From: Escherichia phage vB_Eco_F27
Reading direction: 5' to 3' (one strand)
Sequence record: OP870146.1
DNA length: 64,000 nucleotides
Positions 55,012 to 64,000 of the stretch are shown here, in pieces (positions within the stretch are counted from its first letter, which is position 1; the number at the start of each line of letters is the position of its first letter). The notes under the pieces were generated by a model. That model saw only the letters and a list, made by a program, of their open reading frames with translations, ran no database searches and was not told the DNA's origin. Made by a program: the position numbers and the translations under genes.

Positions 55012-58000
55012 ATGGCCGACATCAAACGTAAGTTCAGAGCCGAAGACGGTCTGGACGCCGGTGGCGACAAGATTGTTAACGTAGCATTAGCCGACCGTAC
55101 AGTAGGTACTGATGGCGTAAACGTTGACTTCCTGGTACAAGAAAACACCGTTCAAGTATATGATTCTACGCGTGGATATAACAGAGGATTTGTTGTTCTT
55201 TATGACAATCGTTTATATCAAGCAATAAATGATATCGTGTCTCCTTCCGGGGCATTTAACCTTTTACAATGGCGTGCAGTTCGTACCGATGCACAATGGA
55301 TAACTGTCGCTTCTGGGACTTATCAACTTTCTTCAGGTGAATCGATTTCGGTTAACACTGGTGCCGGCAATGATATGGTTTTCACATTGCCAAATACACC
55401 GGTTGATGGTGATACTGTTGTTTTGGCTGATATTGGCGGAAGAACCGGGACAGTTAAAGTACAGATTAACGCGTCTGTGCAGAGTATTTTAAACTTTAGA
55501 GGTGAACAAGTTCGTACAGTTTTAATGACGCGCCCACGTTCACAACTATTGTTTGTGTTTAGTAATCGTTTGTGGCAGATGTATATTACCGATTATGGTA
55601 AAGAATCAATCACTGTTACACCTGCGACACCATATCAAGCACAAGCAAATGATTTTATCGTTCGTCGTTTTACTAGTGCAGCACCAATCAACATTACACT
55701 TCCACGTAATGCTAACAATGGTGATATAATCAGCCTAGTCGATTTAGATAGATTAAACCCACTGTATCATACAATTGTTAAAACATTTGATGATACAACG
55801 TCTATTGGTGAAGTCGGGACTCATATTGCCGAAGGCAGAAATGACTCTGACGCGTTTTTTGTTTTTGATGCTGCAAATAGTTTATGGCGTATATGGGAAG
55901 GCGACCAGAAATCGCGTCTTCGTATTATCCGTGCGGATTCAAATATTCGTCCAAATGAAGAAGTTCTTATTTTTGGCACAAATAACGCTACAGCCGGAAC
56001 TATTAATCTTACGCTGCCTACCGGAATTTTGAGTGGTGACACTGTTAAAATTTCAATGAACTACATGCGTAAAGGCCAAACAGTAAAAATTAAAGCTGCC
56101 GAAGGTGATATAATTGCTTCTTCTGTTGCATTGCTTCAGTTCCCTAAACGTTCTGAATATCCACCTGATGCTCAATGGGTCTCTGTTACTGAACTAGAAT
56201 TCAATGGCACTACTTCATATGTTCCTGTATTAGAATTAGCGTATATCGAAGACACCGTTGCTGGTACAAGTTATTGGGTTGTTCAACAAAACGTCCCAAC
56301 TGTAGAACGTGTCGATGCTGGAACTGATACAACTAGAGCTCGTGTAGGTGTTATTGCTCTTGCAACTCAGGCACAGGCAAATGTTGATTTTGAAAATTCT
56401 CCGGCTAAAGAAGTTGCTATTACTCCTGAAACGTTGGCAAATCGTACAGCAACTGAAGCTCGACGTGGTATCGCTAAAATTGCTACAACAGCACAAGTTA
56501 ACCAGAATTCCACAGCAGCATTTGTGGACGATACTATTGTTACGCCTAAAAAACTAAATGAGCGTACAGCAACTGAAACTCGTCGCGGACTTGCTGAAAT
56601 TGCTACTCAGGTTGAAACCGATGCTGGTCTTGATGACACAACGATTATTACACCTAAGAAATTGCAGGCACGTCAGGGTTCTGAAACACTGTCCGGTATA
56701 GTTAAATATGTATCAACTACTTCTGCTACTCCGGCTGCATCTCGTGGAACTGCAGGTACTAATGTTTATAATAAAGACACAACCACGTTAACTATTTCTC
56801 CTAAAGCCCTTGACCAATATAAAGCAACTTATGCTCAACAAGGTGCAGTAATTTTAGCTGTTGATAGTGAAGTAATTGCTGGTCAATCACAAGCAGGTTA
56901 TTCTCACGCTGTAGTAACTCCTGAAACACTACATAAGAAAACTTCTACTGATGGACGTATTGGTTTAATTGAAATTGCTACGCAAGCAGAAACTAATGCT
57001 GGGACTGATTATACACGTGCAGTAACGCCTAAGACGTTAAATGATAGGAAAGCTACGGAAGGATTATCCGGCATAGCCGAAATTGCTACGCAAGTTGAAT
57101 TTGATACTGGAACTGATGATACTCGTATCTCGACTCCACTGAAAATTAAAACTCATTTTGATTCTTCTGACCGTACCAGTGTTAATTCTGATTCCGGACT
57201 TATTGAAGAAGGAACCTTGTGGAACCATTATACTCTTGATATTTCTAAAGCAAATGAAACACAACGTGGTACACTTCGAGTAGCGACTCAGACAGAATCT
57301 AATGCAGGAACTTTAGATGATGTTCTTATTACTCCTAAAAAGCTTTTAGGGACTAAGTCCACTGAAACGTCTGAAGGCGTAATTAAGGTTGCTACTCAGG
57401 TTGAAACTGTAACAGGAACTTCTGCTAATACTGCTGTATCTCCTAAGAATTTAAAATGGATTGTCCAGTCTGAACCAACATGGGCTGCTACTACGGCGCT
57501 TCGTGGATTCGTTAAAACTTCATCTGGTTCTATTACATTCGTTGGTAATGATACAGTTGGTTCAACACAACCTTTAGAATCATATGAAAAAAATAGCTAT
57601 GCTATATCTCCATATGAATTAAACCGTGTACTTGCTAACTATTTGCCATTAAAAGCAAAAGCTGCTGACGCAAATTTATTAGATGGCCTAGATTCATCTC
57701 AGTTCATTCGTAGGGACATTGCACAGACGGTTAATGGTTCACTAACCTTAACCCAACAAACGAATCTGAGTGCCCCTCTTGTATCATCTAGTACTGCTAC
57801 GTTTGGTGGTTCAGTTTCGGCAAATAGTACATTAACTATTTCTAACTCTGGAACAGCTACTCGTCTGATTTTTGAAAAAGGACCTCAAACTGGAACTAAC
57901 CCAGCACAGACGATGACTATCAGAGTTTGGGGAAATGAATTTGGTGGTGGTTCAGATAAAACACGTTCTACTGTATTTGAAGTTGGCGATGAAACATCTA

Positions 58001-58887
58001 ATCACTTTTATTCTCAACGTAATAAAGCTGGGAATATAACGTTTAGTATCAATGGTACTGTGATGCCAATAAATGTTAACGCTTCAGGCACGTTAAATGC
58101 GAATGGCGTTGCAACATTTGGTCGTTCAGTTACAGCCAATGGTGAATTCATTAGCAAGTCTGCAAATGCTTTCAGAGCAATTAGTGGTGATTACGGATTC
58201 TTTATTCGCAATGATGGAGGCAGCACATATTTTATGCTTACTGCATCAGGTGATCAGACTGGTGGATTTAATGGATTACGTCCATTATCAATTAATAACC
58301 AATCCGGTCAAGTTACGATTGGTGAAAGCTTAATCATTGCCAAAGGTGCTACTATAAATTCAGATGGTTTGACTGTTAACTCGAGAATTCGTTCTCAGGG
58401 TACTAAAACATCTGACTTATATACTCGTGCGCCAACATCTGATACTGTAGGATTCTGGTCAATTGATATTAATGATTCAGCCACTTATAACCAGTTCCCT
58501 GGTTATTTTAAAATGGTTGAAAAAACTAATGAAGTGTCTGGACTTCCATACTTAGAACGTGGCGAAGAAGTTAAATCTCCTGGTACATTGACTCAGTTTG
58601 GTAATACACTTGATTCACTTTACCAAGATTGGATTACTTATCCAACAACTCCAGACGCACGTACCACTCGCTGGACACGTACATGGCAGAAAACTAAAAA
58701 TTCTTGGTCAAGTTTTGTTCAAGTATTTGATGGTGGAAACCCTCCTCAACCTTCTGATATTGGTGCTTTACCTTCTGATAATGCAACAATCGGAAACTTG
58801 ACAATAAGGGATTTCTTAAGGATTGGTAACGTCCGCATTATTCCAGACCCTGTGAATAAATCTGTTAAATTCGAGTGGATTGAATAA
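55012..58887 (+). CDS. 34: Long tail fibre proximal subunit gp34
   Basis: 1291 aa (T4 1289 aa); internal ~25-aa repeats; late promoter at 54974-54981. Confidence 0.9.
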   Translation: MADIKRKFRAEDGLDAGGDKIVNVALADRTVGTDGVNVDFLVQENTVQVYDSTRGYNRGFVVLYDNRLYQAINDIVSPSGAFNLLQWRAVRTDAQWITVASGTYQLSSGESISVNTGAGNDMVFTLPNTPVDGDTVVLADIGGRTGTVKVQINASVQSILNFRGEQVRTVLMTRPRSQLLFVFSNRLWQMYITDYGKESITVTPATPYQAQANDFIVRRFTSAAPINITLPRNANNGDIISLVDLDRLNPLYHTIVKTFDDTTSIGEVGTHIAEGRNDSDAFFVFDAANSLWRIWEGDQKSRLRIIRADSNIRPNEEVLIFGTNNATAGTINLTLPTGILSGDTVKISMNYMRKGQTVKIKAAEGDIIASSVALLQFPKRSEYPPDAQWVSVTELEFNGTTSYVPVLELAYIEDTVAGTSYWVVQQNVPTVERVDAGTDTTRARVGVIALATQAQANVDFENSPAKEVAITPETLANRTATEARRGIAKIATTAQVNQNSTAAFVDDTIVTPKKLNERTATETRRGLAEIATQVETDAGLDDTTIITPKKLQARQGSETLSGIVKYVSTTSATPAASRGTAGTNVYNKDTTTLTISPKALDQYKATYAQQGAVILAVDSEVIAGQSQAGYSHAVVTPETLHKKTSTDGRIGLIEIATQAETNAGTDYTRAVTPKTLNDRKATEGLSGIAEIATQVEFDTGTDDTRISTPLKIKTHFDSSDRTSVNSDSGLIEEGTLWNHYTLDISKANETQRGTLRVATQTESNAGTLDDVLITPKKLLGTKSTETSEGVIKVATQVETVTGTSANTAVSPKNLKWIVQSEPTWAATTALRGFVKTSSGSITFVGNDTVGSTQPLESYEKNSYAISPYELNRVLANYLPLKAKAADANLLDGLDSSQFIRRDIAQTVNGSLTLTQQTNLSAPLVSSSTATFGGSVSANSTLTISNSGTATRLIFEKGPQTGTNPAQTMTIRVWGNEFGGGSDKTRSTVFEVGDETSNHFYSQRNKAGNITFSINGTVMPINVNASGTLNANGVATFGRSVTANGEFISKSANAFRAISGDYGFFIRNDGGSTYFMLTASGDQTGGFNGLRPLSINNQSGQVTIGESLIIAKGATINSDGLTVNSRIRSQGTKTSDLYTRAPTSDTVGFWSIDINDSATYNQFPGYFKMVEKTNEVSGLPYLERGEEVKSPGTLTQFGNTLDSLYQDWITYPTTPDARTTRWTRTWQKTKNSWSSFVQVFDGGNPPQPSDIGALPSDNATIGNLTIRDFLRIGNVRIIPDPVNKSVKFEWIE
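56330..57420 (+). repeat. Tandem ~25-aa coding repeats within gp34
   Basis: At least six copies of the motif (I/V)TP(E/K)(T/K)L..R(T/K)ATE..RG(I/L)A(E/K)IAT(Q)(A/V)E. Confidence 0.7.
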
Positions 58888-58895
58888 GAGGTATT

Positions 58896-60023
58896 ATGGA
58901 AAAATTTATGGCTAAGTTTGGACAAGGATACGTCCAAACGCCATTTTTATCGGAAAGCAATTCAGTACGATTTAAATTAAGCATAGCGGGCTCTTGCCCG
59001 CTATCAACATCTCCTGCTTATATTAAGTTCCATGATAATCCACTTGGGTCCCAGGTTTTTTCCGTTGGATTAAATGTTCGTGTAATAAATCCTACAACAG
59101 GTGCAGTAGTTGAATCTAAGTCATATAATTTCTCTACTGAAAACGACGCCACGTCAAGTGCATTTGTTACTTTCATGGACACACATGCTTCAAATTTTAT
59201 ATTTGCTCTTGTTACTAACGCTAAAACAAACTTTCCACCCGAAGTTCTTGCATGGTTTACTAAAGCTGGGAGTTCTGCTATTCCATTAGCTCAACAAGTT
59301 TTAAATATAGTGGACATTTCTTATTCTGCATTTTATATTTCTGGTAAGAATGCTATAGCACTAGAACATATTAAGTATAGTAATAAGAAAACTTCAACCG
59401 ACTATAGTACACCACTTGATGTTGTGTACGACACGATCGATGATATTGGTGCTACCGGCTTCCCTAGTCGTACGTACGAATCGACAGACACATTTTTATC
59501 TGCTGTTGGAGGTACTAATAATGAAATTAAAAGGATGCCTACAACATCCCTTATTACACCTCTCACTGGGTATAAATTGAAGCCTGGAGATTTCCTTTAT
59601 ATGAAATTCCAACTAATGGCCGATGCTGATTTGTTAGCACAAGGGACGACACGACTTTCTATTCGTTTCTTTAAATCTCCTTCTACTTCACCTATTTCAT
59701 TTAAGGATATAAACTTTGATGGGGACGCAGGTGAATGGAAAATATATGAAGACTACATAGAAATTCCTGCTGGTGCTGACGGGTTCACGATTTATTGTTA
59801 TCGTACAGCTCCAGTCGGGCAAGGTGGATTAAGAAACGTTATATTCACTGAAGTATCATGTAACGGAAGCGTTTCAAAACCTGCTGAGTTTGGTATAAAT
59901 GGTATTCGTGTAAATTATGTTTCAGAATCTTTAAGTGCCCCGGACATAATGACATTACCTACTCAATCTTCAACTGATACTGGTAAGGTATTTGGACAAG
60001 AATTTAAAGAAGCATCAGAATAA
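58896..60023 (+). CDS. 35: Long tail fibre hinge connector gp35
   Basis: 375 aa (T4 372 aa); followed by terminator hairpin. Confidence 0.8.
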   Translation: MEKFMAKFGQGYVQTPFLSESNSVRFKLSIAGSCPLSTSPAYIKFHDNPLGSQVFSVGLNVRVINPTTGAVVESKSYNFSTENDATSSAFVTFMDTHASNFIFALVTNAKTNFPPEVLAWFTKAGSSAIPLAQQVLNIVDISYSAFYISGKNAIALEHIKYSNKKTSTDYSTPLDVVYDTIDDIGATGFPSRTYESTDTFLSAVGGTNNEIKRMPTTSLITPLTGYKLKPGDFLYMKFQLMADADLLAQGTTRLSIRFFKSPSTSPISFKDINFDGDAGEWKIYEDYIEIPAGADGFTIYCYRTAPVGQGGLRNVIFTEVSCNGSVSKPAEFGINGIRVNYVSESLSAPDIMTLPTQSSTDTGKVFGQEFKEASE

Positions 60024-60028
60024 ATTTA

Positions 60029-60053
60029 GGGAGACTTCGGTCTCCCATTTTTG
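60029..60053 (+). terminator. Intrinsic terminator after gene 35
   Basis: GGGAGACTTCGGTCTCCC followed by ATTTTTGT. Confidence 0.8.
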
Positions 60054-60085: not shown

Positions 60086-60751
60086 ATGGCCGATTTAAAA
60101 GCTGGTAGTACAACTGGCGGTGCCGTTATATGGCATCAAGGTAATTTCCCTTTAATGCCAGCAGGTGATGACGTCCTGTATAAAACGTTTAAACTCTATT
60201 CAGAATATAATAAACCACAAGCTGCTGATAACGATTTCGTTTCTAAAGCTAATGGTGGTACTTACGCTTCAAAGGTAACATTTAACAGTGGCGTGCAAAT
60301 ACCATATGCTATAAACAATACAAACCAAAGCGGTATTTTTCCTGGTAACGGTGATGCAGCTACTTTTGTTACAGCAAATATTGATATTGTTTCATGCTAT
60401 GGTATTGGTTTTAAATCATCACAAGGAACAGCGGGTAGAACTGTAGTAATCAATACACGTAATGGTGATATTAATACAAAAGGCGTTGTGTCTGCTTCAG
60501 GACAAGTAAGAAGCGATATGACTGCTCCTATAGCAGCAAATGATCTCACAAGAAAAGATTATGTTGATGGACGAATAAATATTGTTACGGATAACGCAAA
60601 TTCCCGTGTATTGCGTTCTGGCGATACCATGGCTGGTACTTTAACAGCACCAAACTTTTTCTCACAGAATCCGGCGTCTGAGGCTAATCATGTTCCTCGT
60701 TTCGACCAGATTGTAATTAAAGATTCTGTTCAAGATTTCGGCTATTATTAA
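60086..60751 (+). CDS. 36: Long tail fibre distal connector gp36
   Basis: 221 aa (T4 221 aa); late promoter at 60054-60061. Confidence 0.8.
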
Positions 60752-60759
60752 GAGGACTT

Positions 60760-63700
60760 ATGGCTACATTAAAACAGATACAATTTAAAAGAAGCAAAGT
60801 AGCAGGAGTTAATCCTACTGCAGCACAATTAGCCGAAGGCGAATTAGCGATAAACTTAAAAGATCGAACTCTTTTTACCAAAGATGACCTCGGTAATATT
60901 ATTAGCCTAGGCTTTGCTAAGGGCGGGGATATTAACGGTAATGTAACTCATGTAGGTAACTATACTCAGACAGGTACATTTAATTTAATAGGCTCACAAA
61001 ATGTTGCATCTGGTGGATATATCGAATTTGCTTATAAGGCCACCGGAGTTGGTTCTTGGGCCGGTCAACACACGGCAAAAGCCCCTATTTTCATGGATAT
61101 TTCCGCATCAACCGCTACTTCAGAATATAACCCGTTAATTAAGCAACGTTATAAAGATGGTACTTTCTCATTAGGGACCTTAGTTAATGAAGGCTCAATG
61201 AAGATGCATTATATTGATGAAACAGGCACTTCGAAATATTGGACCTTTAACCGTAATGGTAATTTTCAAGTTGATTCCGGAAATTTATTAGTAGCTAATG
61301 GATATTTAGTTACTCAAAGTAATATTGAAACTAAAGCTGGTTCTTTAATTGGTCCTAAAGTTATTACCAAAAATATCAATGTGAGCACTAAATCTTGGGA
61401 CACTAATATTGATACTGCATATGATTTAGTTTCATTACCGACTTGGCAGTATACTCCAACCGAAACGGATTTGGATACTAATGGTATAAACTACCTTCGT
61501 AAATTCCGCGGACATGTTTCTTCTGCTATTTTCCATGAAATTGCCGATGCTCGTTCAGGTAAACCACAGAATATTTCATATTGGACTGGACGCAATGCTG
61601 AAGTTTATCAATGGTCTTATACCACCGACGGGCGTATGTCTGTTGCTAATTCGATAGGTGTAGGTCTTGCCGATGTCGGCTCCCAAGGGCGTTATCCTTT
61701 GGCAACATTTGGTAAAGGTATTGCAATTGGTGATAATGACACTGGTGTTAAATGGGTTCGTGACGGTGTTATTGATTTGGTTGCTAATGGCATTTCGGCG
61801 GGTACAATAAACAGCAATGGTATTAACAGTACTAAAAAATTGATGGTTGGTTATAGCCGTGATTCCGGAACTACATGGGATTACCCAAATAACAACCAAG
61901 CAATGTTTACTGCGCGTACCGATGTTGATGGTAATAATAATGGTGATGGTCAAACTCATATCGGTTATAGCAGTAATTCTAAAATGTATCACTATTTCCG
62001 TGGCACGGGTCGTATGTCCATTAGTATGGGTGATGGGCTTCTTGTTGAGCCTGGCATTTTAGATATTAAAACCGGTTCAAATTCGTTAAATTTGCGTGCT
62101 GATGGTACCATCGCTTCTGTTCAAACATTAAAACTTAATAATGGATTATATTTTAATGGTGATGGAACTAATGCTTCTCTAGTTTTTAAAGCAGCTTCAG
62201 GTATTGATGGCACTAAGCAAATTTTGTGGGAAGGCGGTACTCGTGCTGGTCAGAATAAAAGCTATGTAACTGTTAAAGCATGGGGTAATTCATTTAACGC
62301 ATCTGGCGATCGTAATCGTGAAACGGTTTTTGAAGTATCAGATGGGCAAGGATATTATTTTTATTCACAGCGTGTGGCTCCAAGTGGCTCTGAAACTACT
62401 GGGCCTGTTGTAACGCAGTTCAATGGACAAGTTAATGCTAGAGGAAGTATTATTACTGACGGAAGTTTTAAAGTTAATGGATTAAGCACTTTAAATGGTG
62501 CAGTTACCATGAGCAATGGACTTAATTTAACAGGCGGTTCTTCTATCACAGGTCAAGTTAAAATTGGTGGAACAGCAGATGCATTAAGAATTTGGGATGC
62601 TGAATATGGTGCTATTTTCCGTCGTTCTGAAGATAAATTTTATATAATTCCGACCCCAAAGGACGCTGGCGGAACTGGTGGTATTTCCAACCTTCGTCCA
62701 TTTACCATGACTCTTAGTACTGGTAAAATGGAATTTAAACATGATGTTGGACTTGGTGATAACGGCTCCGGCGGAAGCATATTATTTGTAGATAACACTA
62801 ACAAAGCCACTACTAATAATGGTCGTTTATACGTTAATATGTCAAGTGATGCTATAGTGCTTAATGCTCCTACACAAGAAACATCTAACTTTATCCAAGG
62901 ACGCAAAGCTAACGTCACTAAATGGTATGTTGGTATTGGCGACAGCGGTGATTCTGTTCGTATGCATAGTTATGCATATTCCCACGGCTTGGTATTAAGT
63001 GCTAACTCCGTTGATATTACTAAACCTCTTAAAGTCGGAAATGCTCAATTCGGTACTGATGGTAATATCACCGGTGGTTCTGGTAATTTTGCTAACTTGA
63101 ATACCACAATAAATAACCTTAAGACGGATATTGTCTCAAGTTATCCTATTGGTGCTCCGATTCCTTGGCCTACTGATACACCTCCTGAAGGTTATGCCAT
63201 AATGGAAGGTCAAACATTTGATGCTGGCTTGTATCCTAAGTTAGCTGCGGTGTATCCTTCCGGCGCTCTGCCTGATATGCGTGGTCAAACTATCAAGGGT
63301 AAACCATCTGGGCGTGCTGTATTGAGTACAGAAGCAGACGGTGTTAAGTCACATAGCCATAGTGCAAGTGCATCAAGCACAGATTTGGGTACTAAGACCA
63401 CTTCTAGTTTTGATTACGGTAGCAAAACGACTTCAAGCTTTGATTATGGTACTAAGACCAGTAATACCACTGGCAACCATAACCATACAGTGAGTGGTAA
63501 TACTAGCGCAGCAGGTAACCACCAGCACTCACAGACCGGTCCAAGGGGTCCTAATAACCAACCGACCGGGATATTTCCTAATGGGGCTACTCTAATTAGT
63601 GGAACCCAGGTTGTTGGTTTTGGCCTAAGCAACGGTGTCGTGCCTGGTTCAAGCCAATATATTGCAAAGTCATCGACAGAAGGTAACCATACCCACTCTT

Positions 63701-63900
63701 GGTCAGGAACTACTAGCGCTACGGGTAACCATGCCCACACCGTTGGTATTGGTGCCCATACACATACTGTAGGTATTGGTGCCCACTCTCATTCGGTAGC
63801 GATTGGTTCCCATGGACATACAATAACTGTAAATGCCACAGGAAATACAGAAAACACAGTTAAAAACGTTGCTTTTAACTATATCGTTCGTTTAGCATAA
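60760..63900 (+). CDS. 37: Long tail fibre distal subunit gp37 (receptor-binding tip)
   Basis: 1046 aa; C-terminal His-rich GNHxH / GAHxH repeats typical of the T4-type gp37 needle domain. Confidence 0.9.
63391..63832 (+). repeat. His-rich coding repeats in the gp37 tip (GNHxH / GAHxH boxes) plus the tandem KTTSSFDYG duplication
   Basis: [61 protein letters not shown]; [23 protein letters not shown]. Confidence 0.8.
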
Positions 63901-63933
63901 GGAGAAGGGACTTCTGTCCCTTTTTATAATATG
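63901..63933 (+). promoter_or_regulatory. Structured (split) translation initiation region of gene 38: SD, hairpin, AUG
   Basis: GGAG at 63901-63904, hairpin GGGACTTCTGTCCC at 63907-63920, ATG at 63931; resembles the T4 gene 38 hairpin-bridged RBS. Confidence 0.55.
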
Positions 63934-63999
63934 AAACTCTATCACTATTATTTTGACACTAAAGAATTTTACAAAGAAGAAAATTATAAACCATTAAAA
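63931..63999 (+). CDS. 38: gp38 tail fibre assembly chaperone, N-terminal 23 codons (continues past window end)
   Basis: Translation MKLYHYYFDTKEFYKEENYKPLK closely matches the T4 gp38 N-terminus as recalled; SD-hairpin-AUG initiation region upstream. Confidence 0.7.
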   Translation, partial: MKLYHYYFDTKEFYKEENYKPLK

Positions 64000-64000
64000 G

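What the first reader, a model, noticed from the sequence alone, without database searches (positions are those of the whole stretch)
63391..63832. gp37 tip with T4-type His-box repeats, a local tandem duplication, and a gp38 chaperone gene
The C-terminal ~150 residues carry repeated GNHxH / GAHxH boxes of the kind that coordinate metal ions in the T4 gp37 needle domain. There is also a perfect tandem duplication (S/T)KTTSSFDYG x2. At 1046 aa the protein is longer than T4 gp37 (1026 aa as recalled). The gene is followed by a gp38 with a T4-type N-terminus, which indicates the chaperone type rather than the T2-type adhesin. Differences in this tip relative to T4 are the most likely determinants of receptor and host range.
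Basis: partly seen in the sequence, partly recalled or inferred. Interest (0 to 1): 0.4.

Follow-up and report, generated by a model that had tools for sequence, protein, structure and literature searches.

The report
T4-type tail-fibre tip, eight His boxes
This is the ordinary receptor-binding tip of a T4-like (Mosigvirus) phage long tail fibre, already deposited and annotated; it differs from T4 by one extra matched pair of stem repeats, which predicts an eighth metal site, and by a different head, and it most likely still binds OmpC.

Summary
The ORF at 60760-63900 encodes a 1046-aa gp37. All 16 histidines of its last 186 residues sit in 8 HxH motifs. The (S/T)KTTSSFDYG x2 repeat lies at exactly 63391-63450. 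A gene starting at 63931 matches T4 chaperone gp38 in 21 of 23 residues.

Nothing here is new in kind. The exact protein is GenBank WBF80286.1 (Escherichia phage vB_Eco_F27). The tip matches the T4 gp37 tip structure 2XGF at E=2.6e-87.

- A second duplication (VGIGAHxHx, 63742-63822) sits on the returning strand.
- In 131 of 132 distinct homologous needles the number of 10-aa ascending units equals the number of 9-aa descending His units. The duplication is therefore half of a conserved paired module. It predicts 8 metal sites against T4's 7.
- The gene is a mosaic. The body resembles phage NBG1 and the head resembles HY126/SSE1. The switch points lie at His boxes.

Phage JK42 has a tip 95% identical, with 4 of 53 head residues different, and it uses OmpC. 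The receptor class is therefore probably the same as T4's. Interest is low.

The parts
60760..63900 (+). gene 37, long tail fibre distal subunit, 1046 aa
   Evidence: ORF. PHROG 1699 'long tail fiber protein distal subunit', E=4.6e-236. Exact match to WBF80286.1 of Escherichia phage vB_Eco_F27. 98.8% DNA identity to phage NBG1 outside the head. 46% aa identity to T4 gp37.
63151..63294 (+). collar (knob) domain, aa 798-845
   Evidence: Pfam PF07484 Collar, E=3.6e-11. Aligned to 2XGF.
63352..63360 (+). HxH site 1 (KSHSH), base of the ascending strand; lies outside the finding's start
   Evidence: Invariant H86/H88 in the 68-sequence alignment.
63361..63450 (+). three 10-aa ascending stem units: [10 protein letters not shown] (degenerate), [20 protein letters not shown].
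   Evidence: T4 has two units (one FDYG unit).
63478..63528 (+). HxH sites 2 and 3 (GNHNH, GNHQH), 14 residues apart on the ascending strand
63529..63687 (+). head (tip) insert, aa 924-976, 53 residues; presumed receptor-contacting part
   Evidence: Variable region between His boxes. 96-97% identical to G2469, SSE1 and HY126, 92% to JK42, and unlike NBG1. Only ~50% to T4-type heads.
63688..63738 (+). HxH sites 4 and 5 (GNHTH, GNHAH), 14 residues apart on the descending strand
63742..63822 (+). three 9-aa descending units VGIGAHTHT / VGIGAHSHS / VAIGSHGHT carrying HxH sites 6-8. T4 has two.
   Evidence: TRF period 27, 2.9 copies..
63823..63897 (+). conserved C-terminal segment [25 protein letters not shown], returning to the collar
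   Evidence: The last HxH is 29 residues from the C-terminus in nearly all homologues. Invariant columns.
63901..63925 (+). GGAG plus a stable hairpin between gene 37 and gene 38
   Evidence: RNA fold -15.9 kcal/mol, z=-3.97. An equivalent hairpin with different stem bases is present in T4.
63931..64000 (+). 5' end of gene 38 (T4-type tail-fibre assembly chaperone), cut by the window end
   Evidence: 23 aa: 21/23 identical to T4 gp38 and 23/23 to the 183-aa gp38 of NBG1 and HY126.

Best explanation
[quoted passage not shown] It has the T4 collar-needle-head design. Each chain of the trimer runs up the needle, forms the head, and runs back down. Each HxH motif, from three chains, supplies six histidines for one metal ion on the axis. 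The needle is a ladder of matched modules. The ascending strand is H1, k 10-aa units, 9 aa, H2, then m repeats of (14 aa + H). The head follows. The descending strand is H, m repeats of (14 aa + H), k repeats of (9 aa + H), then a 29-aa C-terminus. T4 has k=2 and m=1, giving 7 sites. This protein has k=3 and m=1, giving 8 predicted sites and a stem about 10 residues (roughly 3 nm) longer per strand. The 53-residue head is the specificity module. It was acquired by recombination at His boxes and most likely binds OmpC, possibly together with LPS. gp38, translated from the next gene, is the chaperone that folds the trimer and is not part of the fibre. Shown here: the sequence anatomy, the homology to 2XGF, the module coupling across homologues, the mosaic structure, and the gp38 type. 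Inferred: metal occupancy, the physical pairing of the two extra units, the extra length, and the receptor.
For: Homology: 2XGF E=2.6e-87 across both needle arms; Collar and gp37_trimer Pfam domains; PHROG 1699. Metal sites: 8 HxH motifs hold all 16 tip histidines, far above shuffles. The formula 3+2m+k gives 7 for T4, matching the seven Fe ions reported for the T4 needle (PMC11705849; PMC12609058). Coupling: 131 of 132 distinct needles obey both rules (asc14 = desc14; the H1-H2 distance of 22+10n goes with n+1 nine-residue spacings). The one outlier has only lost H2. Classes seen run from (22, m=2, one 9-spacing) through (32, two), (42, three), (52, four) and (62, five) to (73, six). The duplication is old: 23/30 nt identity with 6 synonymous differences. 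Mosaic: informative sites switch between NBG1-like and HY126-like in intervals 63474-63505, 63720-63738 and 63801-63810, each at a His box. Receptor: JK42 has a 95% identical tip with 4/53 head differences and uses OmpC in K-12 and O157:H7 by RB-TnSeq. Seventeen of 17 T4-type gp37 Straboviridae were OmpC-specific, and Mosigvirus AV117 and AV118 use OmpC. gp38.
Against: No structure of this protein exists, and the only model available here (an AF2 monomer) was poor (pLDDT 52.7, pTM 0.23). The physical pairing of the 10-aa and 9-aa units and occupancy of the eighth site are therefore not shown. The coupling counts come from related sequences, so the number of independent events is much smaller than 132, roughly the 8 architecture classes. 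The 10-versus-9 residue mismatch per rung needs a bulge or twist that I cannot verify. The receptor is inferred from a relative, and 4 head substitutions could matter. Single substitutions change specificity in T4 gp37 and in gp38 adhesins (PMC9603124). Only 23 codons of gp38 are in the window.
Confidence: 0.8

Rival explanations
1. The (S/T)KTTSSFDYG x2 repeat is a recent local slippage duplication, or a host-range mutation of the kind selected in T4 in the laboratory, specific to this phage and itself changing host range.
For: Tandem, in frame, 9/10 residues identical. From memory, duplications near the His boxes of T4 gp37 are reported to expand host range (Tetart et al. 1996); I could not check that paper here.
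Against: The two DNA copies differ at 7 of 30 positions, 6 of them synonymous, and TRF does not see a DNA repeat. The same two units occur in NBG1, HY126, SSE1, JK42 and many prophage fibres. 72 of the 132 distinct needles have the 41/42-residue H1-H2 spacing. The repeat lies in the stem next to the collar, far from the head.
Confidence: 0.04
2. The different head redirects the fibre to a receptor other than OmpC (another porin, or the LPS core alone), which is how the first reader's 'determinant of receptor' could be read.
For: The head is 53 residues against 34 in T4 and does not align convincingly with it. The nearest whole-gene relative, NBG1, carries yet another head. One T4-type Mosigvirus (AV116) was suggested to depend on LPS (PMC10844046). 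Prophage and lambda-type relatives of this family include an LPS binder (PhiNP, PMC9659904).
Against: JK42 has 49/53 identical head residues and uses OmpC in five host backgrounds. All 17 tested T4-type gp37 phages were OmpC-specific despite 'extensive allelic variation' of the tip.
Confidence: 0.2
3. The matched repeat numbers reflect only shared ancestry or co-transfer of linked DNA, not a structural requirement, and the extra units do not lengthen the needle.
For: The sequences are related and many belong to a few clades. The two repeat regions are only ~300 nt apart and could travel together.
Against: Eight different (k, m) combinations occur, with k from 1 to 6 and m from 0 to 2, and no mismatched intermediate appears among 132 distinct needles. 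The intervening head is swapped freely by recombination at the His boxes, and the same head type occurs on k=2 and k=3 needles. Linkage alone should therefore leave mismatches. Needle length is reported to vary with HxH number in solved or modelled fibres (PMC12609058).
Confidence: 0.1

Closest known systems
Bacteriophage T4 gp37 receptor-binding tip (PDB 2XGF; collar, six-stranded needle with seven Fe sites, head)
   Same: Same domain order, the same HxH and GxHxH boxes, the same C-terminal 29 residues, and the same downstream gp38 chaperone. E=2.6e-87 over aa 768-1046.
   Different: One extra 10-aa ascending unit and one extra 9-aa descending His unit, giving 8 HxH motifs against 7. The head is 53 residues against 34 and is of a different sequence type. 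The rest of the protein is only distantly similar (46% overall).
gp37 of Mosigvirus phages vB_EcoM_NBG1, JK42, HY126, SSE1 and G2469
   Same: NBG1 shares 98.8% DNA identity over the shaft and stem. JK42, HY126, SSE1 and G2469 share the head at 92-97%. All have k=3, m=1 and 8 HxH motifs.
   Different: No single listed phage matches throughout. NBG1 has another head, and HY126 and SSE1 have a more divergent shaft (85-87% DNA). The window is a mosaic of the two.
Side tail fibres (Stf) of lambdoid and P2-like E. coli and Shigella prophages; the 'T4- and lambda-based RBP family' of Magaziner & Salmond 2022 (PMC9659904)
   Same: The same ~215-aa collar-needle-head tip followed by a gp38/Tfa-type assembly gene. 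Some carry the same head type (P0007, 65% identity).
   Different: Short N-terminal parts (230-470 aa) on non-T4 virions. Most have k=2 m=1 or k=3 m=0 needles.
T2/T6/S16-type fibres with a gp38 adhesin
   Same: Same locus position (the gene after 37) and the same role of the locus in host range.
   Different: In those phages gp38 (~260 aa, with glycine-rich motifs) is the adhesin on the fibre end. Here the gp38 N-terminus is the T4 chaperone type, and gp37 carries its own needle and head.

Membership tests
T4-type gp37 receptor-binding tip (2XGF fold) | Significant sequence similarity to the solved tip across both arms of the needle and the collar | tested here: met
   phmmer against PDB: 2xgf_A E=2.6e-87, query aa 768-1046 aligned to chain residues 2-242.
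T4-type gp37 receptor-binding tip (2XGF fold) | Phage tail collar domain preceding the needle | tested here: met
   PF07484, 43.3 bits (cutoff 24), aa 798-845.
T4-type gp37 receptor-binding tip (2XGF fold) | Series of HxH (GxHxH 'His box') motifs on both the ascending and descending strands | tested here: met
   Eight HxH motifs, 3 ascending and 5 descending. They hold all 16 tip histidines and exceed every one of 10,000 shuffles.
T4-type gp37 receptor-binding tip (2XGF fold) | Metal ions (Fe in T4) octahedrally bound by six His per site; interwoven trimer | not testable with these tools
   Only a monomer AF2 model was possible and it was poor (pLDDT 52.7). The T4 facts are taken from the literature.
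T4-type gp37 receptor-binding tip (2XGF fold) | Variable head insert between the innermost His boxes; conserved C-terminal ...[17 protein letters not shown] | tested here: met
T4-type gp38 tail-fibre assembly chaperone | Gene directly downstream of gene 37 encoding a ~183-aa protein homologous to T4 gp38 | tested here: inconclusive
   Position met. Only 23 residues are in the window: 21/23 match T4 gp38 and 23/23 match the 183-aa proteins of NBG1 and HY126. The fragment is too short for Pfam or PHROG hits. The full length was not seen.
T2/T6/S16-type gp38 adhesin system | gp38 with an adhesin-type N-terminal attachment domain and glycine-rich motifs; gp37 without its own needle and head | tested here: not met
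   The gp38 N-terminus is the chaperone type, and gp37 carries a complete needle and head.
OmpC-binding T4-type fibres | Infection or adsorption depends on OmpC | not testable with these tools
   Inferred from JK42 (95% identical tip; OmpC by RB-TnSeq) and from 17/17 T4-type phages.

The most novel reading that the evidence does not exclude
The needle of T4-type fibre tips is a quantised ladder. Its length and metal content (3+2m+k sites) are set by strictly matched numbers of ascending 10-aa and descending 9-aa units (k = 1-6) and of 14-aa His units on both strands (m = 0-2). Needle length evolves independently of the head and may be tuned to the depth of the surface glycan layer the fibre has to reach through. 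The window would be an eight-site, one-rung-longer version of T4. I found only a general remark that HxH number may scale with needle length (PMC12609058), not this rule, but I could not read Bartual et al. 2010 or Tetart et al. 1996/1998.
Probability: 0.3. Interest if true: 0.4.

Novelty: already known. Interest (0 to 1): 0.15.

Why it matters
For this window it matters little. The gene is a correctly annotated, publicly deposited long-tail-fibre gene of a well-understood type, and its likely receptor (OmpC) is that of a nearly identical characterised tip. The practical value is for host-range prediction and fibre engineering. The head (63529-63687) is the part to swap, and the His boxes are the natural recombination joints. 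Any engineered change in stem length should add or remove an ascending and a descending unit together. The matched-module rule, if it proves to be unreported, is a small family-level design principle. It also gives a way to predict metal content per fibre from sequence.

Tried and rejected
- AlphaFold2 of the tip (aa 780-1046) with a 68-sequence alignment gave mean pLDDT 52.7 and pTM 0.23 with almost no secondary structure. The tool models a single chain and the real fold is an interwoven trimer. I did not use the model and ran no fold search.
- Tandem Repeats Finder did not detect the 30-nt repeat at DNA level. This is explained by 23/30 identity.
- My first crude regex counts of FDYG and IGxHxH motifs looked uncorrelated. 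Spacing-based parsing resolved this.
- Bartual et al. 2010 (by DOI and a guessed PMC id) and literature on 'His boxes' are not held in the library. Facts on the T4 structure are taken second-hand from PMC9603124, PMC11705849 and PMC12609058. The Tetart papers are cited from memory only.
- No paper on vB_Eco_F27 was found.
- The 23-aa gp38 fragment gave no Pfam or PHROG hit because it is too short.
- The search for homologous proteins returned mainly prophage fibres and not the full-length phage gp37s. Phage relatives came from the phage BLAST searches instead.
- Considered and rejected: recent slippage, a sequencing or assembly artefact, and a T2-type adhesin arrangement.

Full report
**What is there**

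The window ends with the long-tail-fibre gene cluster of a T-even phage. It holds gp34 (55012-58887), gp35 (58896-60023), gp36 (60086-60751), gp37 (60760-63900, 1046 aa) and the first 23 codons of gp38 from 63931. The exact gp37 protein is in GenBank as WBF80286.1, 'long tail fiber, distal subunit', of Escherichia phage vB_Eco_F27. The closest record in the phage collection is the Mosigvirus vB_EcoM_NBG1, with 98.8% DNA identity over 94% of the gene.

**Check of the observation**

The finding's coordinates 63391-63832 are aa 878-1025.
- Seven GxHxH boxes lie inside those coordinates. An eighth HxH (KSHSH, aa 865-867) lies 31 nt upstream of the stated start.
- All 16 histidines of the last 186 residues are in HxH motifs, and the first 860 residues have none.
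- Shuffles give 0.6 to 1.3 HxH on average and never more than 6 in 10,000, against 8 observed.
- The repeat [10 protein letters not shown]|[10 protein letters not shown] is at exactly 63391-63450. The two copies share 9/10 residues but only 23/30 nucleotides, and six of the seven differences are synonymous. This is an old duplication kept by selection, not a recent slip. Tandem Repeats Finder does not report it.
- T4 gp37 is 1026 aa and has a single copy.
- The gp38 start matches T4 gp38 at 21/23 residues and the 183-aa gp38 of NBG1 and HY126 at 23/23. It is therefore the chaperone type.

TRF finds a 27-nt repeat with 2.9 copies at 63745-63821. It encodes VGIGAHTHT|VGIGAHSHS|VAIGSHGHT (aa 995-1021). 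T4 has one unit fewer here.

Relative to T4, the tip therefore gains 10 aa on the outgoing strand, 9 aa on the returning strand and 19 aa in the head. The rest of the protein is about 18 aa shorter and only distantly similar (46% identity overall).

**Identity of the domain**

- The C-terminal 279 residues match the solved T4 gp37 tip (2XGF) at E=2.6e-87.
- Pfam finds gp37_trimer (aa 698-772) and the Collar domain (aa 798-845).
- According to the literature read here, the T4 tip is an interwoven trimer. Each chain runs from the knob to the tip and back, forming a six-stranded needle. Seven HxH motifs coordinate seven Fe ions, and the small head (T4 residues ~932-959) contacts OmpC and LPS (PMC9603124; PMC11705849; PMC12609058).
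- The wider family of T4- and lambda-type tips with a downstream gp38/Tfa-type gene was described by Magaziner & Salmond (PMC9659904).

**The duplication is half of a paired module**

I parsed HxH spacings in 120 homologues from the large protein database, 148 cluster representatives and five phage sequences. All complete needles fit one scheme. The ascending strand is H1, k 10-aa units ending in (F/D)(D/Y)(Y/L)G, 9 aa, H2, then m repeats of (14 aa + H). The head follows. The descending strand is H, m repeats of (14 aa + H), k repeats of (9 aa + H), then 29 aa.

- Of 132 distinct needles, 131 obey both equalities. The single outlier has merely lost H2.
- The classes seen span k=1 to 6 and m=0 to 2. 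In the notation (H1-H2 distance, m, number of 9-spacings) they are (22, 2, 1), (32, 0, 2), (32, 1, 2) = T4, (42, 0, 3), (42, 1, 3) = this window, (52, 0, 4), (62, 1, 5) and (73, 0, 6).
- No mismatched combination was seen.
- The site count 3+2m+k gives 7 for T4, which agrees with the crystal structure as reported, and 8 here.

I infer that the extra FDYG unit and the extra GIGAHxH unit lie side by side. Together they would add one rung, about 10 residues or roughly 3 nm, and one metal site. This is inference. The only model I could make, an AF2 monomer, was unusable (pLDDT 52.7). The count of independent evolutionary events is closer to the number of classes than to 132.

**Mosaic origin of the head**

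I used sites where NBG1 differs from HY126 and SSE1. At those sites the window reads as follows:
- NBG1-like at 63372-63387
- HY126-like at 63422-63430
- NBG1-like at 63456-63474
- HY126-like over 93 of 95 sites at 63505-63720
- NBG1-like at 63738-63801
- HY126-like from 63810

The three main switch intervals contain or abut the GNHNH, GNHAH and GSHGH boxes. From memory, this fits the classical picture of Tetart et al. 1998, in which recombination between conserved His-box motifs swaps adhesin specificity.

The same head type also occurs on shorter (k=2) needles of E. coli prophage fibres (P0007, 65% identity). Head and stem length therefore vary independently.

**Receptor**

- The head is 96-97% identical to those of G2469, SSE1 and HY126 and 92% identical to that of JK42. 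JK42 differs at 4 of 53 head residues.
- JK42 was mapped to OmpC by RB-TnSeq in K-12 and in four O157:H7 strains (bioRxiv 10.64898/2026.07.23.740414).
- A screen of 255 coliphages found 17 OmpC-specific Straboviridae. All carry T4-type gp37 tips with extensive variation in the head (bioRxiv 10.64898/2026.04.02.716166).
- Mosigvirus AV117 and AV118 also use OmpC (PMC10844046).

The most likely receptor is therefore OmpC, perhaps with LPS, as in T4. The head differences more probably set which OmpC alleles or surface contexts are accepted. This is inferred and was not tested.

**Comparison and verdict**

The feature meets every defining feature of the T4-type gp37 tip that can be tested from sequence. 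Metal binding and trimer topology cannot be tested here. It does not fit the T2/T6 gp38-adhesin arrangement.

It is a known, deposited and correctly annotated gene of a structurally characterised family, so the novelty rating is 'already known' and the interest is low (0.15). The only modestly new item is the matched-repeat rule for needle length. That rule is a property of the family and not of this window. I could not establish whether it has been published; a 2025 paper notes only that HxH number may scale with needle length.

Noticed in passing
window 63901-63930: The 30-nt spacer between the gene 37 stop and the gene 38 ATG holds GGAG (63901-63904) and a stable hairpin (63902-63911 pairs with 63916-63925; core GGGAC/GUCCC; -15.9 kcal/mol, z=-3.97). 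T4 has the equivalent hairpin with different stem bases. The NBG1 record annotates it as a terminator. From memory, T4 gene 38 is a classic case in which such a hairpin brings a distant Shine-Dalgarno sequence next to the start codon.
   Followed up: partly
window 60029-60046: A terminator-like GC-rich hairpin (GGGAGAC-TTCG-GTCTCCC followed by a T run) lies between gp35 and gp36. It is annotated as a terminator at the same place in NBG1.
   Followed up: no
window 62206-62748 (gp37 aa 483-663): An internal stretch of gp37 resembles the C-terminal region of the proximal fibre protein gp34 (PDB 4uxe, 5nxf, 9x3r at E~1e-9; Pfam Gp34_trimer). This is the known shared shaft motif between gp34 and gp37.
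   Followed up: no
window 63372-63930: Fine-scale mosaic of NBG1-like and HY126/SSE1-like DNA with at least five switches. The three main ones are at His boxes.
   Followed up: yes
P0001, P0002: The best database hits to the tip are 450-455-aa 'tail fiber protein [Shigella sonnei / flexneri]' entries on contigs of 113 kb and 166 kb. These look like T4-like phage genomes within bacterial assemblies, with truncated gp37 gene calls.
   Followed up: no
P0126, P0221, P0241: Extreme needle variants occur among homologues: 10 HxH motifs with four FDYG units (P0126), six 9-aa spacings with a 73-residue H1-H2 gap (P0221), and a two-fold 14-aa unit on both strands with a single 9-aa spacing (P0241).
   Followed up: partly
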